Positions 14,942-48,845 of a DNA stretch of 64,000 bases are shown here, piece after piece (position 1 is the first letter of the stretch; the number at the start of each line of letters is the position of its first letter). The notes under the pieces are model-generated. The model searched no databases and was not told the DNA's origin. It saw only the letters and a list, made by a program, of their open reading frames with translations. The position numbers and the translations under genes were made by a program. The stretch lies in the UHGV virus genome UHGV-0289908. The stretch is one strand, 5' to 3'. This DNA is from a virus.

Positions 14942-15572
14942 TCCGAGAAAGTGTTCTGTAGAAGGATGTGAAACACAGGCAAAACATAATTGCTTTGATG
15001 GCAAGCCATACTGTGGAAAACACCTTCATCACATGTATAGACATGGAGAAATAAGAACAATACATCGAAGAAGTCCAAATAACTATACAACTAATGGCAA
15101 CATTACTACAGTTGATTTATATGGGAATCGTGGGGAATTAAAAGGGCAAGCCATCATCGACACAGAAGACAAAGAAATTGTATCAAAACATAAATGGGGC
15201 TACACTCCCGATGGATATGTGAAAAGTTCAGCACAAAGACTACTATTGCACCGATTAGTGATGAATTGCACGGACAAGTATTTACAGGTAGACCATATTA
15301 ACGGAAATCCATTAGACAATCGCAAGGCGAATTTGCGATTAGTCACAAATCAACAAAATCAGTTTAATTCAAAAAACACTGGTTCGGGAGACAACTCTCG
15401 AAAAGGAGTTTCATTTCGCAAAGACCGAAACAAATGGAGAGCTTATATCACGCTAAACGGAAAACAAATAGCCCTCGGTTCGTTTGACACAGAAGCGGAA
15501 GCAATAGAGGCTAGAATCCAAGCAGAAGAAAAGTACTATCGAGAATACAGGAGAGGGGAATATTATGAGTAA
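14931..15572 (+). CDS. HNH homing endonuclease with a C-terminal AP2-like DNA-binding domain
   Basis: N-terminal Zn knuckle 'CSVEGCETQAKHNCFDGKPYCGKH'. 'VDHINGNPLDNRKANLRLVTNQQN' HNH core. 'GVSFRKDRNKWRAYITLNGKQIALGSFDTEAEAIEAR' AP2. Confidence 0.7.
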   Translation: MKDNPRKCSVEGCETQAKHNCFDGKPYCGKHLHHMYRHGEIRTIHRRSPNNYTTNGNITTVDLYGNRGELKGQAIIDTEDKEIVSKHKWGYTPDGYVKSSAQRLLLHRLVMNCTDKYLQVDHINGNPLDNRKANLRLVTNQQNQFNSKNTGSGDNSRKGVSFRKDRNKWRAYITLNGKQIALGSFDTEAEAIEARIQAEEKYYREYRRGEYYE

Positions 15573-18366: not shown

Positions 18367-18909
18367 ATGGCAATTAACTTAGAAAAAGGAAATGGAATTT
18401 GTTTAGATAAAGGATTATCACGTGTAGCATTCACAGTAAGTTGGGATACAAATGAAGATGTGGACATCTCAGCCATGTTATTAGAAAATGGTCGTGGAAA
18501 ACGAGATACAGACTTTGTATTCTTCAACAACTTACAACATGAAAGTGGAGCAGTAAAGCACAGTGGAGACATTCGTAACGGAGCTCATGCACTTGGTGTA
18601 GATGATGAAGTAATTGACATCGACTTAAACAAAGTGCCTGCAAACTTCACCGAGATTGTCTTAGTAGCAGATATCTACAATGGAGCTTCTAAAGGATTGC
18701 ACTTCGGTAAGATTGCAAACTCAACAGCTAAGATTGTTGACTTAGACACTAATCGAGTATTGGCTTCATTTAAGTTGGACAAAGACTTAATCGGTCAAAC
18801 AACTTGTGAGTTAGCCCGTGTGGTTCGTGACAATGGAGCATGGAAGTTTGAGAACTTATCTCATCCAGTAATGTCTCTAACAGGAGCATTGACTTCAAGA
18901 GGTTTTTAG
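18367..18909 (+). CDS. TerD-domain protein (tellurium-resistance / Ca2+-binding stress protein family)
   Basis: 'MAINLEKG...ISLDKGL...' start, 'DVDISAMLL', 'GDIRNGA..GVDDEVIDIDL', 'GASKGLHFGKI'. About 180 aa is typical for TerD. Confidence 0.7.
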   Translation: MAINLEKGNGICLDKGLSRVAFTVSWDTNEDVDISAMLLENGRGKRDTDFVFFNNLQHESGAVKHSGDIRNGAHALGVDDEVIDIDLNKVPANFTEIVLVADIYNGASKGLHFGKIANSTAKIVDLDTNRVLASFKLDKDLIGQTTCELARVVRDNGAWKFENLSHPVMSLTGALTSRGF

Positions 18910-20364: not shown

Positions 20365-20585
20365 GTAAATAAAATCAGAAGTTAACAGACATTTAAGGAG
20401 TGGTAAAATGGATTTTAATAAGTGTCATATTGAACTACTTGTAAGAGCATTAGACCATTATAAGTGGTATCAAGTGATTTCAGATGAAGAAAAAGAAGAG
20501 TGTGTCAGAATAAAACGCATTCTTCAAAAGTTATATAAACAAATTGATGGCAAACAAAATTAGAATTTTAAAGGAGACGATATTA

Positions 20586-21287
20586 ATGGCTATTAACTTA
20601 ACTAAAAATCAAGGAATTAACTTAACAAAAGATGTTGAAGGGGTTGAAGAAGCATTAAAGACTATTAAATTAGGATGTGGATGGCAAGCGTCTGATTCGG
20701 GCTATGTAACTATTACACGAACAGTAACGAAAACTCGTCGCACTGGAGGATTCCTTGGATTTGGTGGAACGATTGAAACTTACGAAGAGCCAGCAACTGA
20801 GGAAGTGTATGTAGGAAACATTGATGTAGACGCTTCGGTATTTGCCTTCAAGAATGGAACATTAGTTGGAGAGTGTACATTCCGCAATCAAACAATGAAG
20901 AATCGAGTAGGTAAAACTGTTGCTAAATCAAGCGGAGATGACACAGTGGGGTCTCGTGGTAAGAACAAGAGCGACAATGAAACAGTTACCATTAACCTTG
21001 AGAATGCTGTTGGATTTGCAGATACATTATACTTAGCATTAAACATCTTCCAAGCGAAGAGCAAGGGTCAGCACTTCAACATGATTAATAATTCTTATGT
21101 GCGAGTGTATGATGACAAAGGTATTGAGTTGGCATACTTCAACTTAGCAGAAGACTATGACAAGAAAACAGGAATTGTGGTCGGTAAATTAGTTGAACGA
21201 AATGGGAAGTTTGAGTTTGTTGCATTAGGTGACGGAGTGATTGTTAGCGACTTACGTGACTTAGCTTCAAAATCAAAACGATACTAA
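20586..21287 (+). CDS. TerD-domain protein, second copy
   Basis: Starts 'MAINLTKNQGINLTK' like the first TerD. RBS 'AAAGGAGACGATATTAATG'. The ORF-track start at 20544 is probably too far upstream. Confidence 0.6.
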   Translation: MAINLTKNQGINLTKDVEGVEEALKTIKLGCGWQASDSGYVTITRTVTKTRRTGGFLGFGGTIETYEEPATEEVYVGNIDVDASVFAFKNGTLVGECTFRNQTMKNRVGKTVAKSSGDDTVGSRGKNKSDNETVTINLENAVGFADTLYLALNIFQAKSKGQHFNMINNSYVRVYDDKGIELAYFNLAEDYDKKTGIVVGKLVERNGKFEFVALGDGVIVSDLRDLASKSKRY

Positions 21288-21373: not shown

Positions 21374-23944
21374 ATGAAGAATATTAATGGATTAACAAAC
21401 GCAGAAGTGGAATCGCAACGCATGCTATTTGGAGATAATAAGATTGCAGAAGCAGAACCAAAGAAGTTTTGGACAGAATGGTTGGCAAACTTTGAAGACC
21501 CAATGTTAAAATTATTAGTGGGAATTACAGTGTTAATGGCGGTAATCGCTGCCTTTGGATTCACAGAATGGTTTGAAGTCATTGGTATCTTAATCTCTGT
21601 GACAATCGTAACACTTATTTCAACAAAGACTGCAATGGTTTCAGATGGAGAATACCGCAAGTTAAAAGAAGAGAACTCTCATGAGACTTGTAAGGTATGC
21701 CGTAATGGACAAATTGAAATCATTGACACTAACGACTTGGTGGTTGGAGACTTTGTTTTAGTTCAATCGGGAGAGAAGATTCATGCAGATGGATTCTTAT
21801 ATGATGGGAACATTAAGGTAGACAACTCAGCGTTAAACGGTGAGTCAGATGAAGTTAAAAAGATTCCAACAGACTTCTATGACTTTGCAAATGGTGAAAT
21901 GACAGACTCTCACATGATGTTACGTGGAGCTTTAGTTGCTGACGGGGAAGGTGTTATGAAAGTAGCCAAGGTTGGAGCAAACACTATGATGGGACGTATG
22001 GCAGAAGAGATGACAGAAGAAGAGGTTGACTCTCCATTAAAAGTTAAGTTAACACACTTAGCAGAGCAAATCTCTAAATTCGGTTATATCGGAGCAGTAG
22101 TTATTGGATTAGCTATCTTAGGTAACTCAATCTTAAGTAACGGGCTACAGTCTTGGTTGGCACAACCATTCGCATTAATGGCTAAAGACGTGTTAAATGC
22201 CTTATTAGTATCAGTAACAATCGTAGTTATGGCAGTACCAGAGGGATTACCTTTAATGATTGCAATTGTATTAATGCAAAACACTTCAAAGATGTTGCAA
22301 CACAATGTATTAGTGCGTAAGGCAGTAGGTATTGAAACAGCGGGGTCATTAAACATCTTATTCTCAGATAAAACAGGAACTATCACTAAAGGTCAGTTAG
22401 AAGTAGTAAACTTCATTGACAAGGACGGAAACCAGTTTGATTCAATCACTGGATTAGACGAAGGTATGCAGAAGTTAGTTGCCACATCATTAAAGATTAA
22501 CAACTCGGCTATGATTGTAGACGGTGAAATCACAGGTGGGAACATGACAGACCGCGCTTTATTACAATATGTTAAAGATATTGAGCATGAAGATTTAAAG
22601 GTAGTAAAAGTGGAAACATTCAACTCTGCTAAGAAGTTCATGGCAACTCAATGTGAGACAGCAATGGGTCGTACATTAACGCTATACAAAGGTGCAGTTG
22701 AACGAGTATTAGACAAATGTATCAATATTACAGATGAAGAACGCAACAAAATCAACACTATTGTTGACGAAATGGCTAACAATGCAATCCGTGTACTTGC
22801 TATCAGTTATGCTCATGGAGAGTTAGTAGCAGGTGAATTATCACCAGAGATGAGCTTATTAGGGGTAATTGGTATCCGTGACGATGTTCGTCCAGAAGCT
22901 AAAACAGCCATTGCAGAAGTACAAAATGCAGGTGTTCAAGTAGTCATGATTACTGGAGACCGCAAAGAAACAGCAGTAGCAATCGCAAAAGACGCAGGAT
23001 TAATTACCAAAGACACAGATGTGGTATTAACATCAAGTGAATTACAGGACTTATCAGATGAAGAAGTAAAAGCAATCATTCCAAACTTAAAGGTAGTTGC
23101 TCGTGCATTGCCAACAGACAAGTCACGTATGGTTCGTTTATCACAGGAGCTAGGACTTGTAGCAGGGATGACAGGTGACGGAACTAACGACAGTCCTGCC
23201 TTAAAACGAGCAGACGTAGGGTTTGCCATGGGGTCTGGAACAGATGTAGCGAAAGAAGCAGGAGACATCATCATCTTAGATGACAACTTCAAGTCAATCG
23301 CAGACTCGGTGTTATATGGTCGTACTATCTATAACAATATCTTAAAGTTTATCAAGTTCCAATTAACAATCAACGTAGTAGCAGTATTTATTTGTGCAGT
23401 GTGCCCATTCTTCGGTATCCAAGAGCCATTAAACATTATCCAGTTGCTAATCCTCAATTTAGTAATGGACAGCTTAGGGGCTATGGCATTAGGTGGAGAA
23501 CCTGCATTAAAAGAGTACATGAATGAGAAGCCAAAGTCTCGTACACAATCAATCGTAGATAAAGCTATGATGATTCAAGTAGGTGCTATGGGAGCATTCA
23601 TGGCAGTATTAAGTTTATTATTCTTATTTGTTCCTATGTTCAAAGACATGTTTGGTCAAGCACATTTAACAGGATACTTCGCACTATTCATGTTGATGTC
23701 TGTATTCAATGGATTCAATGTGCGTAGCATGGATTCAAATGTATTCAAGGGATTAGATGAAAACAAAACATTCGCTAAGGTTATGGTTGCTATCGTTGCC
23801 ATCTTAGTAGTGTTAACACTCATTGGAGGAGAATTCTTATCAGTAACCCCAATGAACTTAGTGCAATGGGTTGTGGTGTCAGTAATGGCAGTAACAGTAA
23901 TTCCATTCGGAAGTTTCTTAAAAGGATTAATTTCGTCAAAATAA
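21374..23944 (+). CDS. P-type cation-transporting ATPase (type IIA, Ca2+-ATPase-like)
   Basis: 'DKTGTIT' phosphorylation site, 'MITGDRKETA', 'GDGTNDSPALKRADVGFAMG', an N-terminal cation-ATPase-N segment and about 8-10 TM helices. Confidence 0.85.
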   Translation: MKNINGLTNAEVESQRMLFGDNKIAEAEPKKFWTEWLANFEDPMLKLLVGITVLMAVIAAFGFTEWFEVIGILISVTIVTLISTKTAMVSDGEYRKLKEENSHETCKVCRNGQIEIIDTNDLVVGDFVLVQSGEKIHADGFLYDGNIKVDNSALNGESDEVKKIPTDFYDFANGEMTDSHMMLRGALVADGEGVMKVAKVGANTMMGRMAEEMTEEEVDSPLKVKLTHLAEQISKFGYIGAVVIGLAILGNSILSNGLQSWLAQPFALMAKDVLNALLVSVTIVVMAVPEGLPLMIAIVLMQNTSKMLQHNVLVRKAVGIETAGSLNILFSDKTGTITKGQLEVVNFIDKDGNQFDSITGLDEGMQKLVATSLKINNSAMIVDGEITGGNMTDRALLQYVKDIEHEDLKVVKVETFNSAKKFMATQCETAMGRTLTLYKGAVERVLDKCINITDEERNKINTIVDEMANNAIRVLAISYAHGELVAGELSPEMSLLGVIGIRDDVRPEAKTAIAEVQNAGVQVVMITGDRKETAVAIAKDAGLITKDTDVVLTSSELQDLSDEEVKAIIPNLKVVARALPTDKSRMVRLSQELGLVAGMTGDGTNDSPALKRADVGFAMGSGTDVAKEAGDIIILDDNFKSIADSVLYGRTIYNNILKFIKFQLTINVVAVFICAVCPFFGIQEPLNIIQLLILNLVMDSLGAMALGGEPALKEYMNEKPKSRTQSIVDKAMMIQVGAMGAFMAVLSLLFLFVPMFKDMFGQAHLTGYFALFMLMSVFNGFNVRSMDSNVFKGLDENKTFAKVMVAIVAILVVLTLIGGEFLSVTPMNLVQWVVVSVMAVTVIPFGSFLKGLISSK

Positions 23945-23985: not shown

Positions 23986-24097
23986 TTAAATGCACCTAGG
24001 AAATAGTTTTTGACAGTCAGTACCTACCATGGTAGGTATTGGCAATCAAGAACTGATTCAAAAAGAGAGAGTGAGTTCTTAATACTTGTTAGGAGAG

Positions 24098-25543
24098 ATG
24101 AACATGAATTATAACCACAGAAGTTTTATTTGGGATTGTGACGCTTACAAGCTAGGACATATGTGCCAGTACCCAAGCGACACAGAATATGTTTACTCAG
24201 TATTACAATTACGCAGTGACCGATACTTCACTGAGACACCGATTGTTGGGTTACAATACCTAATTAAAGAGTACTTAATGCAACCAATTTTAAAAGGTGA
24301 TGTCGAAGGGCTAATTGCAGAAGCAAAAGCAATGGGAATCTATCACCCAGATACTGAAACAAAGTTGATGGCTTTAGTAGACTTAGGATACTTACCATTA
24401 GAGATTAAGGCATTACCAGAGGGTAGTGTTGTGGGAATGCCAAATGCAGTGTGTACAATTCAAAATACCGTTGCAGGATTCCACTGGGTAGTAGGGTTCG
24501 TAGAAACATTATTGTTAAAATGGTGGTCAGCCTTAGCAACAGGAGCTTGTAGCTTAAAGTATCGTCGCATTGTTGATAAGTACTTTGCAGAAACATCAGA
24601 CAACGACTTCTTACGACCATTCGCTGTTCATGATTTTGGTTCACGTGGGGCAATGACTCCAGAGGGAGCAGCTTTTACAGGAATGGCTCACGCATTAAAC
24701 TTCGATGGTTCTGACACAATCGTATCAGCTCCATTAATTCGCAAGTTCTACAATGCAGAAGGAATGGTAATCTGCTCAGTGCCTGCTAGCGAACACTCTG
24801 TAATGTGTTCATTTGGACGAGAAGATGAAATTAAAGCATTTGAGAACATGTTAGATATTTACCCTACAGGGATTGTTTCAATCGTTTCAGATACATATAA
24901 TTGGTACAATGTTATGGATAACATGACGCTACAACTAAAAGACCGCATTATGGCTCGTGATGGTAAAGTGGTATTTCGACCAGACAGTGGTAATCCATAT
25001 CACATCATTTGTGGCGAGTACACTGATAAGACATTGAGAAAGTATTGTGAAGAAAGCTGTCAAACTCATGGCGGAATCCATATGTTAGATAAAATATTTG
25101 GTCACACAGTCAACTCAAAAGGATACAAAGTATTGGATTCACATGTAGGACTAATCTACGGGGATGGAATGTATTTAGAACGTTTCGAGAAGACGTTAGA
25201 AACATTAAAAGACCTAGGATATAGTGCGGAAAACTTAGTAATTGGGGTAGGTGGAATCTTACGCAATCACACTCGAGATACTTTAGGAGCGGCATTCAAA
25301 GCGACTTGCGTGTGTCGTGATGGCAAATGGATTCCTATTATGAAAGACCCTATCACTGACCAAGGGAAGAAATCATATCAAGGCTTTGTATCCGTCATCA
25401 AAGAAGATGGACAATATAAAACGGTCGAAGGTGGACATCCACAAGACTTATTACAAACAGTGTTTAAGGATGGACAATTAGTAAAAGACTTCACTTGGCA
25501 GGAAGTTAAAGACCGATACAATTCAGAGTTAGGAGACCGATAA
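24098..25543 (+). CDS. nadV: Nicotinamide phosphoribosyltransferase family protein (NAMPT/NadV-like; candidate Namat of the phage NAD+ reconstitution pathway 1)
   Basis: Blocks 'LPLEIKALPEG', 'HDFGSRG', 'NFDGSDT', 'PASEHSV', 'VSDTYN', 'RPDSGNP', 'NSKGYKVL', 'IYGDG', 'DLLQTVFKDGQL' align one-for-one with NAMPT signature blocks. Confidence 0.85.
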   Translation: MNMNYNHRSFIWDCDAYKLGHMCQYPSDTEYVYSVLQLRSDRYFTETPIVGLQYLIKEYLMQPILKGDVEGLIAEAKAMGIYHPDTETKLMALVDLGYLPLEIKALPEGSVVGMPNAVCTIQNTVAGFHWVVGFVETLLLKWWSALATGACSLKYRRIVDKYFAETSDNDFLRPFAVHDFGSRGAMTPEGAAFTGMAHALNFDGSDTIVSAPLIRKFYNAEGMVICSVPASEHSVMCSFGREDEIKAFENMLDIYPTGIVSIVSDTYNWYNVMDNMTLQLKDRIMARDGKVVFRPDSGNPYHIICGEYTDKTLRKYCEESCQTHGGIHMLDKIFGHTVNSKGYKVLDSHVGLIYGDGMYLERFEKTLETLKDLGYSAENLVIGVGGILRNHTRDTLGAAFKATCVCRDGKWIPIMKDPITDQGKKSYQGFVSVIKEDGQYKTVEGGHPQDLLQTVFKDGQLVKDFTWQEVKDRYNSELGDR

Positions 25544-28557: not shown

Positions 28558-29196
28558 ATGAGCAAAACAGGAAAGACCTGTTGTGTGTCAGAATGTGACA
28601 AAAAGCACTATGCAAACGGCTATTGTGAAAAACATTATTGGCAAGTCAGAAGACATGGAAAAGTGGTCTTATGTACACGTAGCAAATTTGACAATAATGA
28701 AATCATCTTAAATGGAGATGAAACAGCAACCATTATAACCTATGATAATCATGGGGTTGCCAATGGTAAAACAATAATTTCTGATTCCTGTGTAGAACAG
28801 GTCAGAGACAAAAAGATTGGGAAACATACTTCGAAAGATTATTATTACATCCTAATTGACGGCAACCGCTATGCACTTCACCGCTATCTAATGAATGCTC
28901 ACCTTTCTAGGCATAAAGTGGTGGTTGACCACATTAACCGAAACCCGAGTGATAACCGACTATCAAATTTAAGAATAACAAACCATTCTGGCAACAACTG
29001 TAACAGAGGTTTAATGTCAAATAATTCACTAGGTATTAAAAATATTGGATTAACCAAGTACGGAACATATCGAGTGCAGATTTCTTTGAAAGAGAAGAAG
29101 CACAGTAAAACATTTAAGACACTTGAAGAAGCAATTAAATGGAGAAATGAAACTTTGGTTGCTCTACAAGGAGATTTTGCAAACATACAAGATTAA
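28558..29196 (+). CDS. HNH homing endonuclease with an AP2-like domain (paralogue of 14931..15572)
   Basis: 'CCVSECDKKHYANGYCEKH' Zn knuckle, 'VVDHINRNPSDNRLSNLRITNHSGN', 'GTYRVQISLKEKKHSKTFKTLEEAIKWR'. Confidence 0.7.
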   Translation: MSKTGKTCCVSECDKKHYANGYCEKHYWQVRRHGKVVLCTRSKFDNNEIILNGDETATIITYDNHGVANGKTIISDSCVEQVRDKKIGKHTSKDYYYILIDGNRYALHRYLMNAHLSRHKVVVDHINRNPSDNRLSNLRITNHSGNNCNRGLMSNNSLGIKNIGLTKYGTYRVQISLKEKKHSKTFKTLEEAIKWRNETLVALQGDFANIQD

Positions 29197-30358: not shown

Positions 30359-30856
30359 ATGGCTCGGAAAGTTAAATGTCCAGTTTGTGACAAGATGAAC
30401 CCAAAAGACGAAACCGTCAAATTGGGGAATCGCTACTACTGCCCTGCATGTGCAGAGGAGCGAAATCACCAACAACTATCAGATTGGGACATACTGTTCC
30501 AATACATCTGTTGGCTGTATCGTATCCCCAACTTAACTGGGCAAATGTATAAACAGTTAAAGGATTATCGAGACAACTGGGAATATACAGACATTGGAAT
30601 GTATCACACCCTAAGATATTACCATGAGATTCTTGGGAAGCCTGTCAAAGATGACGCAGGATTGGGGATTATCCCATATTACTACGATAGAGCAAAGGCA
30701 TTTATATACAAACAGTATTCACTTAAACAACAGTATGACCAATATAACCAAGAAGAGAAAGAGGTTTATGTGCAACGCACTCAGCCAGAACGATGGAAGA
30801 AACGAGAACCGTTAAATTTTGACACAGTAGATTGGGGAGATACTAATGAAGATTAA
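30359..30856 (+). CDS. Zinc-ribbon protein (N-terminal CPVC...CPAC)
   Basis: 'CPVCDKMNPKDETVKLGNRYYCPACAEE'. Confidence 0.45.
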   Translation: MARKVKCPVCDKMNPKDETVKLGNRYYCPACAEERNHQQLSDWDILFQYICWLYRIPNLTGQMYKQLKDYRDNWEYTDIGMYHTLRYYHEILGKPVKDDAGLGIIPYYYDRAKAFIYKQYSLKQQYDQYNQEEKEVYVQRTQPERWKKREPLNFDTVDWGDTNED

Positions 30857-32879
30857 AAAGGAAACCATTGAGAAATACTATGACACCAGAGCTTGTTGCC
30901 AAGTCCTAGGATGTCTAATGCTTGAACCACAACGTCTAAGCTCACGAGAAATGCAGGTAGCAGAGTTTGACTTTGTCTCACCAATTCACAAGACATTGTT
31001 TATTTCTATCTACAACTTAGGTTTACAAGGTCTTAAGGCTATCAGCTTGGGAGATGTAGAAACATACTTGGCGAACAACAATCCAGTTGGACATAAGAAG
31101 ATGTTTGAAGAGTGGAACGGAGCTGAATGGATTACAAGTATCCTAGAAGACGCTAATGTACACAACTACGACTATTACTATTGGATTGTTCGTAAGTTCT
31201 CGTTCCTACGTATTAAAATGCAGAATGGTCAAGATGTATCAGCTCTATTAGATATGACTGAGCTAGACTGTGAAGCGTTACGTATTCAACGTGAGAACTT
31301 CGATTTGCTAACTATTGATGATATTATTCGATACTTCGATTCAGTCAACCTATCTGCTAAACGACCATTCGTAACACGAGCAGAAGAAGCTCGTCGTAAA
31401 GCAGGAGACAACGCATTTGAGTTATTAAAGCAATTAGCCTTAGCTCCTTCATTTGGATTTGCTACTGAGTCTGCATATCTAAACACTATCATGCGTGGAC
31501 TACGACGAGGAACATTCATGCTCGAAACCCGTGATTCTGGTTGCGGAAAAACGAGGGTGGCGATTAAACGCCTATTATTAACTTCTGCTCCTTATCTATG
31601 GGACTTTAAGAAGAGAGCATTTGTTCGCAACCCACACACTCCTGTGGCAAGTTTATACATAGGTACAGAGATGGATTTATACACTGAGTTAGAGCCAATG
31701 ATGTGGGCTTTCTTATCGGGTGTGGACGAAGATAAAATCCATGCAAATACTCTGACACCAGATGAGCGTCAACGTGTAGAACGAGCGATTAAGATTCTAC
31801 AAGACACTCCATTATACTTAGAAGATGAAGAGAACTATGACATCTCTTTCTTATCTCACACTATTGAACACTACAAGACAGAATACAATATCGGAGTAGT
31901 TGCTATTGACTACTTAGAGTTAACATCTGCATTAACAACTGAGTTCACTCATACAACACGTGGAATGGGTGTACGTGAAGACCAAGTGTTATTAAACTTA
32001 TCTACTAATGTTAAGAACATGGCTAAACGCTTTGACATTGCCATGATTGGATTTACTCAAACTACTGACTTAGCACGTGCAGAGGGGGTTCGTGACCAAC
32101 GTGCCGTAAAAGGTGCTCGTTCACTTCCTAATAAATGTGACTTAGGGATGACTTCGTTTGCTCCTACCAAACAAGAGATTGAGTTATTAGAGCCATTAAT
32201 TGAGAAGTGTGGATTGAACAATGGTCGTTGTGTTCCTAACATTGGATACAACATCTACAAGAATCGTGGCGGTAAATTCAAGAACATTAAGATTTGGGGA
32301 TATCAAGATTTAGGAACAATGGAATATGTAGATTTATTCTGTACAGATGAATCATATGCTCCTATCAATGTTGATAAAACATACTTAATGCCTAATATCG
32401 TAGCCTTAACAGAAGAAGAGTATGACGAGAAGTATGGTAGCTTAGAAGAACAAGAAGCTCCAGAAGGGTATTCATTAGACGCTGAAACAGGAGAACTTGT
32501 TGAGATTGTTGAAGATGAGGACATTGACGCACCGTTAACAGATGAAGACATTAGTGGTTTCCATAAAGAAGAGGAAGAAGATGAATTAACAGAAGAAGAA
32601 ATTGCCCTAAAAGAATACGAGGAGCAAGTAAAAGCCTACAATGACGCTATGATGGCTCAATATGAAGGCGATGAAAGCCATGTATTGCAATACGATGAAA
32701 ATGGATTGCTACAAGCTATTCCAGTTGAATTTGAACCACAAGAAGAAGTAGAAGAAGCAATAGAAGAGTTAGAAGACCCATTTGCTGAACTTCCTATAAT
32801 TGATGATACGGAGTTAGACTTCTTAAATGAAGAAGAACCTGCTCCAACTTTAGGTACAAGAAAACGTATTGGATTCTAG
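30846..32879 (+). CDS. dnaB: DnaB-like replicative DNA helicase with a long acidic C-terminal tail
   Basis: Walker A 'RDSGCGKTR'. RecA-like core. About 150-aa Glu/Asp-rich C-terminus. Confidence 0.55.
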   Translation: MKIKKETIEKYYDTRACCQVLGCLMLEPQRLSSREMQVAEFDFVSPIHKTLFISIYNLGLQGLKAISLGDVETYLANNNPVGHKKMFEEWNGAEWITSILEDANVHNYDYYYWIVRKFSFLRIKMQNGQDVSALLDMTELDCEALRIQRENFDLLTIDDIIRYFDSVNLSAKRPFVTRAEEARRKAGDNAFELLKQLALAPSFGFATESAYLNTIMRGLRRGTFMLETRDSGCGKTRVAIKRLLLTSAPYLWDFKKRAFVRNPHTPVASLYIGTEMDLYTELEPMMWAFLSGVDEDKIHANTLTPDERQRVERAIKILQDTPLYLEDEENYDISFLSHTIEHYKTEYNIGVVAIDYLELTSALTTEFTHTTRGMGVREDQVLLNLSTNVKNMAKRFDIAMIGFTQTTDLARAEGVRDQRAVKGARSLPNKCDLGMTSFAPTKQEIELLEPLIEKCGLNNGRCVPNIGYNIYKNRGGKFKNIKIWGYQDLGTMEYVDLFCTDESYAPINVDKTYLMPNIVALTEEEYDEKYGSLEEQEAPEGYSLDAETGELVEIVEDEDIDAPLTDEDISGFHKEEEEDELTEEEIALKEYEEQVKAYNDAMMAQYEGDESHVLQYDENGLLQAIPVEFEPQEEVEEAIEELEDPFAELPIIDDTELDFLNEEEPAPTLGTRKRIGF

Positions 32880-32888
32880 GAGGGGCAT

Positions 32889-33662
32889 ATGACAAATAGA
32901 AGTAAAAAACATGAATACATGAACCAGACCTTCACTACAAATGAGGGGTACAATATCAAGATTGTAGATTATGTTAATAGTCGCAATGTGACAGTTGAAT
33001 TTGACAATGGATATAGAACCAATGCTCAACTTGGCTCAATTTTAAAGGGGAGAGTCTCATTCCCCTTTCACCCCTCTGTATATGGGGTAGGTTGCTTGGG
33101 GGTTGGAGAGTATCTGGCAAGTCATAAAAGAAAACACACAAAGACCTACAAAGTATGGCATAGCATGATGGCACGCTGTTATAGCAACTCTTGCTTGGCG
33201 AGCAGGAGCACTTATATGGATTGCTCTGTATACGAGGGATGGCACAATTTCCAAAACTTTGCCAAATGGTATGAAGACAACTATTATGAGATAGAGGGGG
33301 AGCAAATGCACTTGGACAAGGATATTCTTGTAAAGGGCAATAAGGTTTATTCCCCCGACACCTGTGTATTTGTTCCAGAAACCATTAACGGACTGTTTGT
33401 CAAAAGCAATGCCATTAGAGGGGCATTGCCAATAGGTGTCAGCTATCATAAAAAAGACAGGATGTATTACTCTCGATGTAATAATCAGCTATTGGGGAAG
33501 ACTATCACCATTGGGACTTTTACCACCCCCGAGGGTGCGTTCGAAGCCTATAAAGAATACAAAGAGAAGTATATTAAAGAAGTGGCAGAGAAATATAGGG
33601 GCAATATTCCTTCTCATCTGTATGACGCACTAATCCAGTATGAAGTCGAAGTTACTGATTAA
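32889..33662 (+). CDS. Freestanding HNH-family homing endonuclease (paralogue of 2742..3479)
   Basis: 'YKVWHSMMARC...YEGWHNFQNF..W' conserved with the 2742 protein. Lies between the helicase and the primase. Confidence 0.5.
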   Translation: MTNRSKKHEYMNQTFTTNEGYNIKIVDYVNSRNVTVEFDNGYRTNAQLGSILKGRVSFPFHPSVYGVGCLGVGEYLASHKRKHTKTYKVWHSMMARCYSNSCLASRSTYMDCSVYEGWHNFQNFAKWYEDNYYEIEGEQMHLDKDILVKGNKVYSPDTCVFVPETINGLFVKSNAIRGALPIGVSYHKKDRMYYSRCNNQLLGKTITIGTFTTPEGAFEAYKEYKEKYIKEVAEKYRGNIPSHLYDALIQYEVEVTD

Positions 33663-44424: not shown

Positions 44425-44604
44425 ATGTCACAGAAGAGAGAGAAAAAGAAACATGAATATGACTTTCTATGCTTTTGTGGAGAGGTGTCAACACACCAAC
44501 TCCCTATAGAGCATGGGCTTAGCGGGACAAAGGCAAAGGGATTCGTTAGGTGTCCGCATTGCGACCGTGAGACATACTTGAAGATATACTTAGACTTAAA
44601 ATAG
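44425..44604 (+). CDS. Small zinc-ribbon protein
   Basis: 'CFCGE...CPHCDRETY'. RBS 'AAAGGAGGTGACAACATG'. Confidence 0.35.
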   Translation: MSQKREKKKHEYDFLCFCGEVSTHQLPIEHGLSGTKAKGFVRCPHCDRETYLKIYLDLK

Positions 44605-44615
44605 GGGGAAACAAT

Positions 44616-44798
44616 ATGGTAAAATTTATTACATATGCACTACAACTGGTTATCATTCTTATTTTACTTAAGGTGTGTTTCAATCTTGTGGTGATGGTAA
44701 TGGTGGGATTTATTAAAGCCATACCTGCTCTTGTTCTTGCGGTGCTTGCCTTGGTACTTTTAGATAAGATTTTTGACAACGAAGAAGAAGAAGAATAG
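44616..44798 (+). CDS. Small membrane protein with an acidic tail
   Basis: Two hydrophobic helices followed by 'DNEEEEE'. Confidence 0.35.
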   Translation: MVKFITYALQLVIILILLKVCFNLVVMVMVGFIKAIPALVLAVLALVLLDKIFDNEEEEE

Positions 44799-44810
44799 GA
44801 GACGATTTAC

Positions 44811-45980
44811 ATGGCATTAGTTATTAAACGAGATGGAAATTTAACAGGGTTTAACAAGAATAAGATTAAGGTGGCAATTTTAAAAGCAATGGAGTATGGT
44901 AGCGGCATTGTCAATAAAGAGATTGCCGAAACTGTTGCTCAAGAAGCTGAAAATACATACAATGTTGATGGAAAGATGACAGTAAGCATTGCAGAGATTG
45001 AAGCATTCGTGTTTCAACAATTAGTCCAACACGGACATGAATTAACCGCACGTGCCTATGAAGGATACCGTTCTGTTCAAGCCTTCAAACGTGAGACAAA
45101 CACAACGGATGAATCAATCTTGGGGCTAATTCGTGGAACAAATGAAGAAGCTATCAATGAGAACTCAAACAAAAATGCTTACATTGCTTCTACTCAACGA
45201 GACCTTGTAGCAGGAGAGGTTTCAAAAGACCTTGCACGTAGACACTTAATTCCTGCTCATATTGTGCAAGCTCATGATGAAGGTGTCATTCACTATCACG
45301 ACCTTGATTATGCGTTACAACAAATTCCAAACTGTAACTTAGTTAACTTAAAAGATATGTTGGATAATGGCACTGTGATTAATGGAAAACGTGTTGACTC
45401 TCCAAATTCATTCTTAACTGCTTGTACTATTGCTACTCAAATTATGGCACAGGTTGCAAGTGGACAATTCGGAGGACAAACAAGCTCATTATCGCACTTA
45501 GCTCCTTACGTTCGTAAATCAAGAGAGCGTTACTATGACTTATTAAAGGACACAATCAACTCTATTGACGAGTTAAATAACACAGTTGATAAGTTAGTTA
45601 AGAAGGAGATTGCTTCTGGAGTACAGACAATCCAATATCAAATACAGACGCTCGCAACATCTAATGGTCAGTCACCTTTCGTTTCTTTATTCATGTATTT
45701 AAACGAAGATGAAGAGTATATCGAAGAGATGGCTTTAATCATTGAAGAAGTATTAAAGCAACGCATCTTAGGGGTGAAGAATGAGCAAGGAGTATACATT
45801 AGTCCTGCATTCCCTAAATTGCTTTACGTTCTTGATGAGAACAATACATACGAAGGTAGCGAATACTACTACTTAACTAAATTAGCAGTTGAATGTGTGT
45901 CTAAACGCATTGTTCCAGACTTCATCAGTGCTAAAAAGATGAAAGAACATTATGAAGGACAAGTGTTCCCTTGTATGGGT
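44811..45980 (+). CDS. nrdD: Anaerobic ribonucleotide reductase NrdD, exon 1 (ATP-cone plus N-terminal catalytic region)
   Basis: 'MALVIKRDGNLTGFNKNKIKVAILKA' ATP-cone. The ORF runs into intron sequence after '...VFPCMG'. Confidence 0.8.
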
Positions 45981-46948
45981 AAGTAAAACTGCCCATGTAA
46001 AACTCGGTGAACCTAGAAATCTAGGGTGTATAATCAGCGATTAGTAGCATTAGGAAATGAGTGCTAATGATTATGCTAACAGGGGAAGTCGCATAGATTA
46101 TCCTGTGCTAAGTCTCAACATGCAGTATAGGAGGAGATGTCATGTATACTGTATATAAAGCCACCAATGTAAATAATCATAAAATCTATATTGGGGCAAC
46201 TAACAATTTAAAACGAAGAATAAATGAACACAAAAACCACGCACGCAAAGATAAGAGTAGATTCCACGGTGCAATTTTAAGGTATGGAATTGAAAGTTTT
46301 GTTTTTGAAATACTTTTACAATGTGAAAACAAAGAAGAAATGTTTGAAAAAGAAAAAGAGATGATTGCCCTTTTTGACTCTACGAACCCAGAGATTGGCT
46401 ATAACGAGACCGAGGGAGGTAGAGGAGGTCAAACTCACGACATACACGGAGAGAGAAATCCTATGCACGGCAAACTTTACACCGAAGAGGAGAGGAAAGC
46501 TCTATCGGACAAATTAAAAGGTCGAAAGATAACTGCCGAACATAGGCACAAAATAAGCTCAAGTCTCAAAGGAAAAGAAAAGAGTGAGCAACACAGGTTG
46601 AATTTATCAAAGGCTCTTAAAGGGAATCTTCCATCCAACTCCCGCAAAATCTCTGTGATACATACGATAACTGGAGAAATATTAACCTTTAACTCAGAAG
46701 CGGAAATGGAACGAGCGTTAAAATGTGGTCGTGCAACGGTTAAAAGTGGGCGAATTACCAAGAATGGATATAAATTGTATGTTGAGAAAAGTCAAGAGAC
46801 TATCGAAAGCATAGCATAAGAGAAAAACTTATGTGAAGAAGCGAGTAGAGTACATTTGAGGTGGAATTCCTCATTTGGAAGTGCCGAGGTCTTGTGTGTT
46901 GGTAATAGACATGCAAGACATGATATAGTCCAACCTCGCAAGAGGTTG
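45981..46948 (+). mobile_element. Group I self-splicing intron in nrdD carrying a GIY-YIG homing endonuclease
   Basis: The exon-1 end 'ATGGGT' pairs with intron 'GCCCAT' at 45991-45996 (P1 helix with the U.G wobble at the splice site). CAACCTC-GCAA-GAGGTTG GNRA hairpin ends at G46948 directly before exon 2. Joining gives '...PCMG|CRSFLSPW...'. Confidence 0.75.
46142..46819 (+). CDS. GIY-YIG homing endonuclease (intron-encoded)
   Basis: 'MYTVYKATNVNNHKIYIGATNNLKRRINEHKN' GIY-YIG motif. C-terminal repeated 'KLKG / SLKG / ALKG' NUMOD-like DNA-binding repeats. Confidence 0.8.
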   Translation: MYTVYKATNVNNHKIYIGATNNLKRRINEHKNHARKDKSRFHGAILRYGIESFVFEILLQCENKEEMFEKEKEMIALFDSTNPEIGYNETEGGRGGQTHDIHGERNPMHGKLYTEEERKALSDKLKGRKITAEHRHKISSSLKGKEKSEQHRLNLSKALKGNLPSNSRKISVIHTITGEILTFNSEAEMERALKCGRATVKSGRITKNGYKLYVEKSQETIESIA

Positions 46949-47908
46949 TGTAGAAGTTTTTTATCTCCATGGAAAGATGAGAACGGAAACTACAAGTGGT
47001 ATGGTCGTCAGAATTTAGGAGTGGTCACTTTAAACCTACCAGATGTAGCATTAACTGCAAAAGGTGACTTAGACATGTTCTGGAACATTCTTGACCGCAG
47101 ATTAGAATTATGTAAAGAAGCATTAATGGTGCGAGTAGACTTATTGCGTGGAACACCATCTGATATTAGTCCAATCCACTGGCAATATGGAGCTGTAGCA
47201 CGACTTAAAAAAGGTGAAACTATTGACTCTATTATTGATAGTGGAGCTTGTTCTATTAGTTTAGGATACATTGGTCTTTGCGAAACTGTACGTGCTTTAA
47301 TTGGACAGTCACATACTACTCCAGAGGGTGAGAAGTTGGCAGTTGCAATTATGAAACGATTACGAGAATCAACAGACCGATGGAAACAAGAAACTGGCTT
47401 AGGATTTGGGCTTTACGGGACACCATCTGAATCTTTAACTTACCGTTTTGCTACTAAACTTCAACAACGTCATGGTATCATTGATGGAATCACTGACAAG
47501 TTATACTTAACAAACAGCTACCATGTTCACGTTTGCGAAGAGATTGACGCTTTCTCTAAAATGGCATTCGAGTCACAATTCCAAAAGATTTCATCTGGTG
47601 GAACTATTTCATATATTGAAGTGCCTAACATGAAGCACAATTTAGAAGCTCTACACCGAACAGTAGAATTCATGTATGAGAACATGCAATACTGTGAAAT
47701 CAATACTAAATCAGACTATTGCCAAGAGTGTGGATACGATGGAGAGATTTTAATTGATGACGAACTTGAATGGTATTGTCCAAACTGCGGTAACAGAGAC
47801 AAGAGCAAGATGAACGTTGTCCGCAGGACTTGTGGCTATTTAGGGGAGAACTTCTTCAACAAAGGTCGCACTCAAGAAATCAAAGAGCGAGTGTTACACT
47901 TAAACTAA
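46949..47908 (+). CDS. nrdD: NrdD exon 2 (glycyl-radical domain and C-terminal Zn ribbon)
   Basis: 'RRTCGYLGE' glycyl-radical motif. 'CQECGYDGE...CPNCGN' Zn ribbon. The in-frame upstream part of ORF 46856 is intron. Confidence 0.8.
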   Translation, partial: CRSFLSPWKDENGNYKWYGRQNLGVVTLNLPDVALTAKGDLDMFWNILDRRLELCKEALMVRVDLLRGTPSDISPIHWQYGAVARLKKGETIDSIIDSGACSISLGYIGLCETVRALIGQSHTTPEGEKLAVAIMKRLRESTDRWKQETGLGFGLYGTPSESLTYRFATKLQQRHGIIDGITDKLYLTNSYHVHVCEEIDAFSKMAFESQFQKISSGGTISYIEVPNMKHNLEALHRTVEFMYENMQYCEINTKSDYCQECGYDGEILIDDELEWYCPNCGNRDKSKMNVVRRTCGYLGENFFNKGRTQEIKERVLHLN

Positions 47909-47927
47909 TAATAAAGGGAGATATGAA

Positions 47928-48290
47928 ATGGCAGTTTACGAGTTAAAAGATTTTAAATATGAGGTGAAGGGGTCTGGCAATAGCTTTAAGCCCCATGCCC
48001 CTGTGCTAAATTGGTTTTTTATTCATGGTAATAAAGGGATAGAAACTTTTAATGGAATACCATCTGGGGTTTATAGCAAACTTGTTGACTTCATGAATAA
48101 TTGCGAACAATTCTCTCTGTCGCTTCATCAATGCGAGGGGACAACCACAGACTTTATTATTGTCAAAGGACGTGCATTCAATGGCATTCGTGAAATGAAG
48201 CAATGGATTAAAACTTGTGAGAACAAGTATCCTACTTACAAATATCTAATTGCGGATTACGAAACAGGACAGATTGAGCGTTTTATGTAA
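47928..48290 (+). CDS. Hypothetical protein
   Basis: ORF between nrdD and nrdG. Confidence 0.4.
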   Translation: MAVYELKDFKYEVKGSGNSFKPHAPVLNWFFIHGNKGIETFNGIPSGVYSKLVDFMNNCEQFSLSLHQCEGTTTDFIIVKGRAFNGIREMKQWIKTCENKYPTYKYLIADYETGQIERFM

Positions 48291-48341
48291 TTTACAACTG
48301 GGGCTATGTGCCCCTTTTGCCATATCTATAGGAGGAATACT

Positions 48342-48845
48342 ATGAATTATCAGTTAGTGAAGTACAACAATATCGGCAATGGAATCGGCATCAGAACAAG
48401 TTTGTTCGTGACAGGATGTTCACATGGTTGTAAAGGATGTTTCAATCAGTCTATTGCTAACAAAAACGCAGGAGAGCCATTCACAGATGACGTTAAAACA
48501 GCAATTTTACAGTCATTAGAGCCTTCTTATATTGCAGGGTTATCTTTATTAGGAGGTGAGCCCATGGTGTCATACAACGCTCCAGAGTTAGCCAAACTAT
48601 GCCGTGAAGTGCGAGAGCTACATCCCACAAAGAATATATGGGTATATAGTGGCTTTACCTATGAGCAGATTATTGCAGACCCAATCAAACTAGAGTTACT
48701 GGAACAGTGCGATGTTCTAGTTGATGGGAAGTTTGAACAAAACCTATACTCTCCTCTGCTACGATTTAGAGGGAGTAGCAATCAGAGAATCATTGACATA
48801 AAGAAATCCCTAGAATCTGGTGCTGTGACACTATTCTTGGAATAA
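48342..48845 (+). CDS. nrdG: Anaerobic RNR activating enzyme NrdG (radical SAM)
   Basis: 'TGCSHGCKGCFN' C-x3-C-x2-C cluster. About 165 aa. RBS 'TATAGGAGGAATACTATG'. Confidence 0.8.
   Translation: MNYQLVKYNNIGNGIGIRTSLFVTGCSHGCKGCFNQSIANKNAGEPFTDDVKTAILQSLEPSYIAGLSLLGGEPMVSYNAPELAKLCREVRELHPTKNIWVYSGFTYEQIIADPIKLELLEQCDVLVDGKFEQNLYSPLLRFRGSSNQRIIDIKKSLESGAVTLFLE

What the first reader, a model, noticed from the sequence alone, without database searches (positions are those of the whole stretch)
45981..46948. Group I intron with a GIY-YIG homing endonuclease splitting nrdD; the P1 helix and a GNRA hairpin at the 3' splice site are readable by eye
NrdD is encoded in two pieces, 44811..45980 and 46949..47908, separated by 968 nt. 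The exon-1 end 'AUGGGU' is complementary to intron 'GCCCAU' 10 nt downstream. This gives the canonical U.G wobble at the 5' splice site. The intron ends with a CAACCUC-GCAA-GAGGUUG hairpin and a terminal G directly before exon 2. Splicing gives the contiguous motif '...PCMG|CRSFLSPW...'. The intron carries a GIY-YIG endonuclease ORF. nrdD introns are known in T4 and in Bacillus phages. This one is a clean example and marks an active homing-endonuclease landscape in this phage.
Basis: partly seen in the sequence, partly recalled or inferred. Interest (0 to 1): 0.55.

Follow-up and report, generated by a model that had tools for sequence, protein, structure and literature searches.

The report
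Self-splicing intron in phage nrdD
A gut phage's anaerobic ribonucleotide reductase gene is interrupted, right before the codon of its catalytic cysteine, by a 968-base self-splicing group I intron carrying its own homing endonuclease gene; it is a clean example of a well-known kind of selfish element.

Summary
nrdD is split into 44811-45980 and 46949-47908 by a 968-nt insert.

- **Junction.** A 94%-identical intronless allele from another metagenome has exactly the length and junction (PCMG|CRSF) predicted for the spliced gene.
- **Ribozyme.** The insert has a complete group I core of the IA2 type. It consists of P1 with the U.G wobble, P3-P9, the P7 pseudoknot, P7.1/P7.2 and a terminal G. 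Covariation in 10 related phage introns supports it: 90% of cells pair, against 34-42% in the slid controls. A thermodynamic fold gives z = -7.
- **Endonuclease.** A 225-aa GIY-YIG/NUMOD3 endonuclease ORF with its own Shine-Dalgarno sequence sits in the P6a loop. Its last codons overlap P6a', P6' and P7, and its stop codon lies in P7.1.
- **Rfam.** RF00028 scores only 18 bits. This is a sensitivity problem: an ORF-less relative also stays below the gathering score.
- **Site.** The insertion lies immediately 5' of the Cys391 codon, which aligns with T4 NrdD Cys290. This differs from the T4 nrdD intron site and from two other phage nrdD intron sites.
- **Relatives.** Endonucleases 50-66% identical occupy the same nrdD site in other gut-phage contigs.

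Verdict: a real intron, very probably able to splice and to home. It is a new member of a known kind and of modest interest.

The parts
44811..45980 (+). nrdD exon 1 (390 codons: ATP-cone plus the N-terminal half of the NRDD domain). Its last 6 nt, AUGGGU (45975-45980), form the 5' strand of P1.
45981..46948 (+). Group I intron, 968 nt, IA2-like (no P2; P7.1 and P7.2 present)
45991..45996 (+). Internal guide sequence GCCCAU (P1 3' strand). G45991 pairs with U45980 (U.G). It is followed by J1/3, GUAAAA (45997-46002), the same motif as in the T4 nrdD intron.
   Evidence: P1 covaries between Clostridium phages CS01 and CS19 (UUUGGU/GCCAAA against UUCGGU/GCCGAA).
46003..46008 (+). P3 5' strand CUCGGU; pairs with GCCGAG at 46883-46888
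   Evidence: helix 1: 100% paired, 4 of 6 pairs with changes on both sides; recovered in the MFE fold.
46012..46073 (+). Two extra hairpins between P3 and J3/4. Hairpin c is 46012-16/46021-25. Hairpin e is 46031-35/46069-73 plus 46046-50/46061-65, with the conserved loop UAGGAAAUGA. They are specific to this intron family and absent from the T4 nrdD intron.
   Evidence: (helices 2-4)
46080..46109 (+). P4 (46080-84/46101-05), P5 (46088-90/46096-98) and the P6 5' strand CU (46108-09). These carry the P and Q consensus elements (CUAACAGGGGAAG, AUCCUGUGCUAAG).
46113..46121 (+). P6a 5' arm UCUCAACAU. It pairs perfectly (9 bp) with AUGUUGAGA at 46779-46787 and closes the 657-nt loop that holds most of the endonuclease ORF.
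   Evidence: (helix 8)
46129..46134 (+). Shine-Dalgarno sequence AGGAGG, 7 nt upstream of the endonuclease AUG
46142..46819 (+). GIY-YIG / NUMOD3 homing endonuclease ORF (225 aa). Codons from 46779 onward overlap P6a', P6' and P7, and the stop codon (46817-46819) lies in the P7.1 5' arm.
46779..46791 (+). P6a 3' arm (46779-87) and P6 3' strand AG (46790-91)
46796..46803 (+). P7 5' strand. G46796 pairs with C46931, A46797 is bulged, and GACUAU (46798-803) pairs with AUAGUC (46925-930). By homology, G46798-C46930 is the guanosine-binding pair.
   Evidence: helix 10 (100% paired, 3 pairs with changes on both sides)
46804..46847 (+). P7.1, an extended bipartite hairpin: outer GC/GC 46809-10/46841-42, inner CAUAAG/CUUAUG 46815-20/46828-33
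   Evidence: helices 11-12
46858..46872 (+). P7.2: GAGG-UGGAAUU-CCUC
   Evidence: helix 13 (100% paired)
46883..46888 (+). P3 3' strand GCCGAG
46889..46919 (+). P8 (10 bp, 46889-98/46910-19)
   Evidence: helix 14
46920..46931 (+). J8/7 AUGAU plus the P7 3' strand AUAGUC(C); this is the S consensus element GAUAUAGUC
46932..46948 (+). P9 AACCUC-GCAA-GAGGUU with a GNRA loop, followed by the terminal G46948 (omega G)
46949..47908 (+). nrdD exon 2 (319 codons plus stop). It starts with the codon of Cys391, which aligns with T4 NrdD Cys290, and holds the Zn-ribbon cysteines and the glycyl-radical motif RRTCGY.
48306..48845 (+). nrdG activase (Fer4_12 / Radical_SAM), the functional partner of NrdD
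   Evidence: Pfam marks on the same gene in L013 and L015

Best explanation
The 968-nt insert is a mobile group I intron of the IA2 type.

**Splicing (inferred from the structure).** In the nrdD pre-mRNA the exon end AUGGUU... more exactly AUGGGU pairs with the guide GCCCAU to form P1. The core folds as follows:
- P3/P8;
- P4-P6, with a long P6a;
- the P7 pseudoknot with its bulged A and a G-C guanosine site;
- P7.1 and P7.2;
- P9.

A free guanosine attacks after U45980. The terminal G46948 then enters the same site and the exons are ligated. The product is a 2130-nt ORF for a 709-aa NrdD in which Gly390 and the catalytic Cys391 become adjacent.

**Endonuclease and homing.** The P6a loop carries a GIY-YIG/NUMOD3 endonuclease gene with its own ribosome-binding site. 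Its product is expected to cut intronless nrdD alleles near this site in mixed infections. Repair then copies the intron, plus a few flanking exon bases, into the cut allele. This is homing.

**What is shown and what is inferred.**
- Shown in silico: the exact junction, the intact core, the intact ORF, and the presence/absence polymorphism.
- Inferred: catalysis, cleavage and homing.
For: 1. **Empty-site allele.** L018 has the same length as the predicted spliced CDS, no gaps and identical amino acids across the junction. It sits in the same gene neighbourhood (60-aa ORF, nrdD, 120-aa ORF, nrdG, dUTPase).
2. **Profile continuity.** The NRDD Pfam profile runs 1-262 on exon 1 and 264-562 on exon 2.
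3. **Core helices.** All are formed in the window. On 10 family members 90.4% of cells pair, against 34-42% with partners slid. 52 of 68 pairs show changes on both sides, and 0 of 500 shuffles reach the observed values. P3, hairpin c, P6, P7, outer P7.1 and P7.2 are 100% paired.
4. **Thermodynamic fold.** The MFE fold of the ORF-deleted intron recovers P1, P3, c, e, P4/5, P6a, P7.1, P7.2, P8 and P9 at -109.5 kcal/mol, z = -7.0.
5. **Homology of the core.** It is 75-83% identical to introns of SPO1/SP82-type, SPbeta-type, Clostridium CS, Enterococcus EFP01, Perkons and Enterocloster phages. The ORF-less Perkons member scores RF00028 at 38 bits, E = 2e-8.
6. **Endonuclease.** GIY-YIG and NUMOD3 hits lie above the Pfam cut-offs and PHROG 'homing endonuclease' scores 4.5e-34. 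The motifs TVY...IYIG...RR...E...GYN are readable in the translation. AGGAGG lies 7 nt upstream of the AUG.
7. **Same site elsewhere.** Endonucleases 50-66% identical occupy the same site in divergent nrdD genes: L025, L028-L030, L031 and L032.
8. **Precedent.** nrdD is the RNR gene most often split in phages (PMC3653736). Splicing of nrdD introns in gut phages has metatranscriptome support (PMC12880540).
Against: - Rfam RF00028 does not reach its gathering score in the window (18.1 bits, E = 0.075, 3' part only).
- P10 is weak: 2 bp (C45989-G46950, A45988-U46951) behind a U/U mismatch at +1.
- There are no expression or splicing data for this phage.
- The endonuclease's last codons lie in P6a', P6' and P7. 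Translation to its stop would therefore compete with ribozyme folding.
Confidence: 0.9

Rival explanations
1. The gene is in pieces and is never spliced. The endonuclease insertion split nrdD, and the two halves are translated separately and assemble, as in Aeromonas phage Aeh1 nrdA split by mobE.
For: The case is real and documented for a phage RNR (cited in PMC3653736). Exon 1 ends with a stop two codons into the insert.
Against: - Exon 2 has no start codon or ribosome-binding site at its true beginning. The only in-frame start is a TTG at 46856 inside the ribozyme core.
- About 290 nt of non-coding flanks form a complete, covariation-supported ribozyme.
- The split falls between Gly390 and the catalytic Cys391, a poor place for a protein break.
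Confidence: 0.03
2. The intron is a decayed relic. It once spliced but no longer does, so nrdD is a pseudogene in this phage.
For: There is no direct splicing evidence. P10 is weak. Some relatives look degenerate: L028 has a split nrdG, L032 has nrdD in several pieces, and both have A instead of G at the last intron position.
Against: - Every core helix, the bulged-A/G-C guanosine site, J8/7 and the terminal G are intact in the window.
- Both exons and nrdG are intact ORFs.
- The exact endonuclease protein is on record in 11 contigs; all 5 shown, from 5 different samples, have the same arrangement.
Confidence: 0.06
3. The element is an intein or a group II intron rather than a group I intron.
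For: Inteins are reported in some phage nrdD genes (PMC3653736).
Against: - The insert is not in frame with the exons; there is a stop after 2 codons.
- No intein or reverse-transcriptase domains were found; the ORF is GIY-YIG.
- The RNA has group I hallmarks.
Confidence: 0.005

Closest known systems
Phage T4 nrdD (sunY) group IA2 intron with I-TevII
   Same: - Same host gene.
- Same type of ribozyme: no P2; P1 followed by J1/3 GUAAAA, then P3; P7.1 and P7.2 present.
- The endonuclease belongs to the same GIY-YIG superfamily.
   Different: - The T4 site corresponds to aa 275/276 of this NrdD, not 390/391.
- I-TevII lies 3' of the core, at intron positions 236-1012. Here the ORF is in the P6a loop.
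- The two proteins share only a weak 28% match in the linker.
- T4 lacks hairpins c and e between P3 and P4.
Intron family of Firmicute-infecting phages (SPO1/SP82-type DNA polymerase introns, SPbeta-type phage introns, Clostridium CS01-CS37 nrdD, Enterococcus EFP01 nrdD, Psychrobacillus Perkons, Enterocloster CB457P1)
   Same: The ribozyme is homologous: 72-83% nt identity over the 5' core. It shares the c and e hairpins, the conserved GGUGAACCUAGAAAUCUAGGGUGUA block, and the P7.1/P7.2 layout.
   Different: - Other host genes, or other nrdD sites (about aa 163-187 and about aa 221-230).
- The annotated ORFs are HNH endonucleases, and they sit in P5, P6a or P8 loops, or are absent.
Phage T4 td intron with I-TevI
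   Same: A GIY-YIG endonuclease ORF looped out of P6a in an IA2 intron (my recollection of the literature; not tested here).
   Different: Different host gene. There is no detectable close sequence relation: no PDB chain, which would include I-TevI structures, matched the endonuclease at E <= 0.01.
Aeromonas phage Aeh1 nrdA split by the free-standing endonuclease mobE
   Same: A phage RNR gene interrupted by a homing endonuclease gene.
   Different: That case has no intron, and the halves assemble as proteins (PMC3653736). Here a full ribozyme surrounds the ORF.

Membership tests
Group I intron | P1 helix between the 5' exon end and an internal guide sequence, with a U.G wobble at the 5' splice site | tested here: met
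   AUGGGU 45975-80 pairs with GCCCAU 45991-96, giving U45980.G45991. P1 is recovered by the MFE fold. The analogous P1 covaries in CS01 and CS19.
Group I intron | Terminal guanosine (omega G) at the 3' splice site | tested here: met
   G46948 directly precedes exon 2. The junction is fixed by the intronless allele.
Group I intron | Conserved core P3-P8 with the P3/P7 pseudoknot and a guanosine-binding G-C pair next to a bulged nucleotide in P7 | tested here: met
   All helices are present in the window and covariation is strong. G46796-C46931, bulged A46797 and G46798-C46930 are in place.
Group I intron | Score at or above the Rfam RF00028 gathering threshold | tested here: not met
   The score is 18.1 bits against 50. 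The 657-nt ORF loop and the family-specific helices explain it. The ORF-less relatives L005 and L006 also fail the gathering score, although L006 reaches 38.2 bits, E = 2e-8.
Group I intron | Removal restores an uninterrupted, conserved reading frame | tested here: met
   The spliced CDS is 2130 nt and 709 aa. It is collinear with the intronless allele L018 and with the Pfam NRDD profile.
Group I intron | GTP-dependent self-splicing | not testable with these tools
   Needs in vitro transcription and splicing, or RNA reads.
Subgroup IA2 | P7.1 and P7.2 hairpins between P7 and the 3' strand of P3 | tested here: met
   P7.1 spans 46804-46847 and P7.2 spans 46858-46872. The order of elements is the same as in the T4 nrdD intron. 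No formal subgroup model was run.
GIY-YIG homing endonuclease | GIY-YIG catalytic domain with its conserved Tyr/Arg/Glu/Asn residues, plus a DNA-binding module | tested here: met
   PF01541 scores 50.3 bits (cut-off 22.6) and NUMOD3 scores 25.7 bits (cut-off 20.4). PHROG 314 'homing endonuclease' scores 4.5e-34. The motifs are visible in the translation.
GIY-YIG homing endonuclease | Site-specific cleavage of the intronless allele and intron homing | not testable with these tools
   Only indirect support. Intron-plus and intron-minus alleles coexist in closely related phages. The same site is occupied in divergent nrdD genes.
Class III ribonucleotide reductase NrdD (host gene) | ATP-cone, NRDD domain, catalytic Cys, C-terminal Zn ribbon, glycyl-radical motif, and a partner activase NrdG | tested here: met
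   The Pfam domains are found. C391 aligns with T4 C290. CQECG...CPNCG and RRTCGY are in the translation. nrdG lies at 48306-48845.

The most novel reading that the evidence does not exclude
This intron may represent an undescribed and widespread lineage of nrdD introns in gut phages.

- It homes to the codon boundary just before the catalytic cysteine. This site differs from the T4, Clostridium and Enterococcus phage nrdD sites.
- In W, L025, L028 and L032 the last seven codons of the endonuclease (E-T-I-E-S-I-A-stop) are the P7/P7.1 ribozyme core itself, kept across 50% protein divergence.
- Two members (L028, L032) carry A instead of G at the last intron position. They would either splice with a non-G terminal nucleotide or be dead.
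Probability: 0.2. Interest if true: 0.4.

Novelty: new member of a known kind. Interest (0 to 1): 0.25.

Why it matters
- **Annotation.** It corrects the annotation: one 709-aa NrdD rather than two fragments plus an orphan ORF.
- **Insertion sites.** It adds a fourth documented intron site in phage nrdD, at the most conserved spot of the enzyme. This fits the rule that homing elements target catalytic-site codons.
- **Experimental material.** It supplies a natural intron-plus / intron-minus allele pair (window and L018) for testing homing, co-conversion and the target of a new GIY-YIG enzyme.
- **Concept.** Nothing in it challenges current understanding.

Tried and rejected
- **Megablast of the locus against isolate phages:** no match.
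- **Rfam at gathering score on the whole window:** nothing. tRNA scan: none.
- **Viral-contig scan with the endonuclease:** no relatives.
- **PDB sequence search with the endonuclease:** no hit at E <= 0.01.
- **Promoter/terminator scan of 44500-48400:** fewer promoter-like sites than the shuffled mean, and no plus-strand promoter-like site inside the intron.
- **First P7 assignment.** I first took CGAGUA (46842-47) as the P7 5' strand, which would have left a G/G mismatch in the guanosine site. I rejected it when GACUAU at 46798-803, inside the ORF's 3' end, proved to be the strand homologous to that of ORF-less relatives.
- **Alternative P3 half-helix.** I considered UGCU 46074-77 pairing with AGUG. 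All the columns are nearly invariant and one relative breaks the pairing. Left open.
- **A canonical P10:** only 2 bp.
- **Aerobic RNR gene at the window start.** I checked whether it is also split. It simply runs off the window edge.
- **Literature.** Goodrich-Blair & Shub 1994 (PMC308352), which I wanted for helix naming, is not held.

Full report
**1. Observation**

- The nrdD frame opens at 44811 and reads ...CCT TGT ATG GGT. It then runs into AAG TAA at 45981-45986.
- A second NrdD-like frame is readable from TGT AGA AGT at 46949 to the stop at 47908.
- Pfam places the first piece on ATP-cone plus NRDD profile positions 1-262, and the second piece on NRDD 264-562 plus Gly_radical. The two pieces therefore abut with no loss or duplication.
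- GCCCAT at 45991-45996 is complementary to the exon end ATGGGT, with U45980.G45991 as the terminal wobble pair.
- The insert ends with CAACCTC-GCAA-GAGGTTG, and G46948 is its last base.
- The ORF 46142-46819 (225 aa) hits GIY-YIG and NUMOD3 above the Pfam cut-offs and PHROG 'homing endonuclease' families.

**2. The junction is fixed by an empty-site allele**

A search with the predicted spliced protein returned P0001: 709 aa, 94% identical and full length.
- Its contig L018 carries the same neighbourhood (60-aa ORF, nrdD, 120-aa ORF, nrdG, dUTPase) with an uninterrupted nrdD.
- Its CDS is 2130 nt, exactly the length of exon 1 plus exon 2. It aligns without gaps at 88% nt identity and encodes the same KMKEHYEGQVFPCMG|CRSFLSPWKDENGNY.
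- A second intronless allele, L019 (83% aa identity), agrees.
- Shifting the junction by one base would give the same protein but would break both group I rules: a U before the 5' site and a G before the 3' site.

**3. The RNA is a complete group I ribozyme**

Rfam alone is inconclusive. RF00028 matches only the 3' part, at 18.1 bits and E = 0.075, and nothing reaches the gathering score in the window.

BLAST shows that the non-coding flanks belong to a known family of introns of Firmicute-infecting phages:
- 5' core, 72-83% identity: Clostridium CS01-CS37 nrdD, Enterococcus EFP01 nrdD, SPbeta-type phages, SPO1/SP82-type DNA polymerase genes, Staphylococcus Silviavirus, Enterocloster phages, Psychrobacillus Perkons.
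- 3' core: Bacillus thuringiensis and B. subtilis myophages.

Two relatives without an ORF, Perkons (L006) and Enterocloster CB457P1 (L005), let me read the core by homology. The resulting map, in window coordinates, is:

| Element | Coordinates | Note |
|---|---|---|
| P1 | 45975-80 / 45991-96 | exon end with guide sequence |
| J1/3 | 45997-46002 | GUAAAA |
| P3 | 46003-08 / 46883-88 | |
| Hairpin c | 46012-16 / 46021-25 | family-specific |
| Hairpin e | 46031-35 / 46069-73 and 46046-50 / 46061-65 | family-specific |
| P4 | 46080-84 / 46101-05 | |
| P5 | 46088-90 / 46096-98 | |
| P6 | 46108-09 / 46790-91 | |
| P6a | 46113-21 / 46779-87 | 9 perfect bp closing the ORF loop |
| P7 | 46798-803 / 46925-30, plus G46796-C46931 | A46797 bulged |
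| P7.1 | 46804-47 | |
| P7.2 | 46858-72 | |
| P8 | 46889-98 / 46910-19 | |
| J8/7 | 46920-24 | |
| P9 | 46932-37 / 46942-47 | GCAA loop |
| omega G | 46948 | |

Every pair in this map is a standard pair in the window sequence.

On an alignment of ten family members with the ORF loops trimmed (A1), the structure performs as follows:
- 90.4% of cells are paired, against 34-42% when partners are slid by 1-3 columns.
- 52 of 68 pairs show changes on both sides.
- 0 of 500 shuffles reach the observed values.
- P3, c, P6, P7, outer P7.1 and P7.2 are 100% paired. P3 alone shows eight different sequence combinations in the ten sequences, for example CUCGGU/GCCGAG, CCACGU/GCGUGG and GAUGGU/GCCAUC.

An unconstrained MFE fold of the ORF-deleted intron recovers P1, P3, c, e, P4/5, P6a, P7.1, P7.2, P8 and P9 at -109.5 kcal/mol, z = -7.0. 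P7 is a pseudoknot, so that method cannot predict it.

The ORF-less Perkons intron scores RF00028 at 38.2 bits, E = 2e-8, which is still under the gathering score of 50. The weak Rfam result in the window therefore reflects model sensitivity plus the 657-nt loop. It does not indicate a defective core.

The layout matches the T4 nrdD intron, which starts ...GCUCAU GUAAAA UCUGCC UAAAA CGGG. The shared features are no P2, J1/3 GUAAAA, and P7.1/P7.2 between P7 and P3'. The difference is that two hairpins (c, e) are inserted here between P3 and J3/4. I call it IA2-like. I could not run a formal subgroup model.

**4. The endonuclease**

- The ORF has a strong Shine-Dalgarno sequence (AGGAGG, 7 nt from the AUG) and lies in the P6a loop.
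- Its last 13 codons are also P6a', P6' and P7, and its stop codon lies in the P7.1 5' arm (46779-46819).
- It has no paralogue in the window and no close relative among isolate phages; the best tblastn identities are 34-40%. It shows only a weak linker match to I-TevII.
- In metagenomes the exact protein is on record in 11 contigs of up to 155 kb, and all 5 places shown have the same arrangement. Relatives at 50-66% identity (P0124, P0126-P0128) also sit inside nrdD with exon 1 ending ...ATGGGT just before the Cys codon. These are L031, L025-27, L028-30 and L032. Their nrdD genes and neighbourhoods differ, for example Thy1 and an integrase in L028.
- The C-terminal E-T-I-E-S-I-A-stop, encoded by GAGACUAUCGAAAGCAUAGCAUAA, is kept in W, L025, L028 and L032. 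Protein and ribozyme thus share these bases.

**5. Insertion site**

- Aligned with T4 NrdD, Gly390 and Cys391 correspond to T4 Gly289 and Cys290. From the literature as I recall it, T4 Cys290 is the thiyl-radical cysteine.
- The T4 intron lies at our aa 275/276.
- The Clostridium CS phage introns lie at about aa 221-230. The Enterococcus EFP01 and two human-faecal phage insertions lie at about aa 163-187.
- The window's site is therefore a separate homing site in the same gene.

**6. Mechanism and rivals**

The best explanation is ordinary group I self-splicing plus endonuclease-mediated homing (confidence 0.9).
- Shown in silico: the exact junction, the intact core and the presence/absence polymorphism.
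- Inferred: catalysis, cleavage and homing.

The rivals are weaker.
- **Split-protein model (Aeh1 nrdA type).** It is unlikely. Exon 2 has no translational start at its beginning, a full ribozyme surrounds the ORF, and the break would separate Gly390 from the catalytic Cys.
- **Dead relic.** This cannot be excluded without RNA data, but nothing in the core is damaged. The one soft point is P10, with only two pairs.

**7. Context**

- The window is from a temperate phage of the human gut. It carries an endolysin, an integrase, tail fibres, a ligase, DNA polymerase III alpha, DnaB, RecJ and a RecD-like helicase. GC content is 37.8%.
- The nearest cellular NrdD proteins are from Firmicutes MAGs (Turicibacter, Thomasclavelia, Anaerostipes) at about 61-62% identity.
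- Three further HNH/AP2-type ORFs lie in the window.
- The literature states that nrdD is the RNR gene most often split in phage genomes (PMC3653736). It also reports that nrdD of gut jumbo phages is commonly interrupted by group I introns, with metatranscriptome evidence of splicing (PMC12880540).

**8. Verdict**

This is a real, clean and probably active intron-endonuclease pair. It is a new member of a known kind and is useful mainly for annotation and as experimental material. Interest 0.25.

Noticed in passing
window 45974-46957, compared with L018 1840-1858 and L019: Synonymous differences from the 88%-identical intronless allele pile up at the insertion site: 8 differences within -9..+9, 6 of them in the first 9 nt of exon 2 (TGT AGA AGT against TGC CGC TCA). 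These include Arg and Ser codon-family switches that need several steps. Position -1 is T here, as the U.G pair requires, but C in L018. This looks like a short co-conversion tract, or like target-site divergence or immunity.
   Followed up: partly
window 46779-46819: The last 13 codons of the endonuclease are also P6a', P6' and P7, and its stop codon lies in P7.1. The C-terminal ETIESIA-stop and its RNA are conserved in relatives whose endonucleases are only about 50% identical (L025, L028, L032). Ribosomes reading to the stop would unfold the catalytic core, which implies some control over the timing of translation.
   Followed up: partly
window 46012-46073: Two hairpins (c and e, the latter with the conserved loop UAGGAAAUGA) lie between the P3 5' strand and J3/4. 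The T4 nrdD intron has nothing at this position. They are shared by the whole Firmicute-phage intron family and supported by covariation. I could not find what they are called in the literature.
   Followed up: partly
L028 about 3310-3335; L032 about 2215-2245: Two same-site relatives have A, not G, as the last intron nucleotide (..GCACAA|TGCCGG and ..CAACACAA|TGCCGG). The protein frame and a 4-bp P10 (GGUA/UGCC) fix this junction. Either they splice unusually or they are dead. L028 also has nrdG in two ORFs.
   Followed up: partly
L032 2285-4047: In this relative, nrdD exon 2 is interrupted again by an insertion carrying an HNH_3 ORF (2917-3438), which leaves nrdD in at least three pieces.
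   Followed up: no
window 45985-45990 and 46955-46960: AAAACU in the P1 loop is perfectly complementary to AGUUUU at exon 2 positions +7 to +12. The canonical P10 at +1 to +4 has only 2 pairs. The intronless alleles read UCAUUU/UCAUUC there, so the pairing is specific to the intron-bearing allele. It may be chance.
   Followed up: no
window 47928-48290: A 120-aa ORF with no Pfam mark on record or PHROG hit lies between nrdD and nrdG. It is present in W, L013, L015 and L018 but absent in the otherwise collinear contig L014. This is a small presence/absence polymorphism.
   Followed up: no
window 14931-15572, 28558-29196, 32889-33662: Three further endonuclease-like ORFs (HNH_3+AP2, HNH_3, and AP2 only) lie in the window. 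The last sits directly after the DnaB-like helicase gene. They look free-standing. No ribozyme was found around them at Rfam gathering score.
   Followed up: partly
window 30846-32879: The DnaB-like helicase is 677 aa long. The DnaB_C profile matches only positions 1-178 of 255 (residues 204-406), which leaves about 270 C-terminal residues unexplained. This may be an insertion or an extra domain.
   Followed up: no
window 18367-18909, 20544-21287, 21374-23944, 24086-25543: The phage carries two TerD-domain proteins, a P-type cation ATPase (856 aa) and a nicotinate/nicotinamide phosphoribosyltransferase. This is an unusual block of auxiliary genes upstream of the replication module.
   Followed up: no
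L033 2501-2539 (Vibrio phage vB_VpaM_sm033 nrdA): A 320-kb Vibrio phage has nrdA split by an insert with an HNH ORF. That insert shares 38 of 39 nt with the window's P7.1 region (46815-46853). Pieces of this ribozyme family therefore cross the boundary between phages of Gram-positive and Gram-negative hosts.
   Followed up: partly
L008 389-746: Bacillus phage SBSphiJ4 has a second, unrelated group I intron (RF00028 at 61.8 bits) a few hundred bases upstream of the family member used in the alignment.
   Followed up: no
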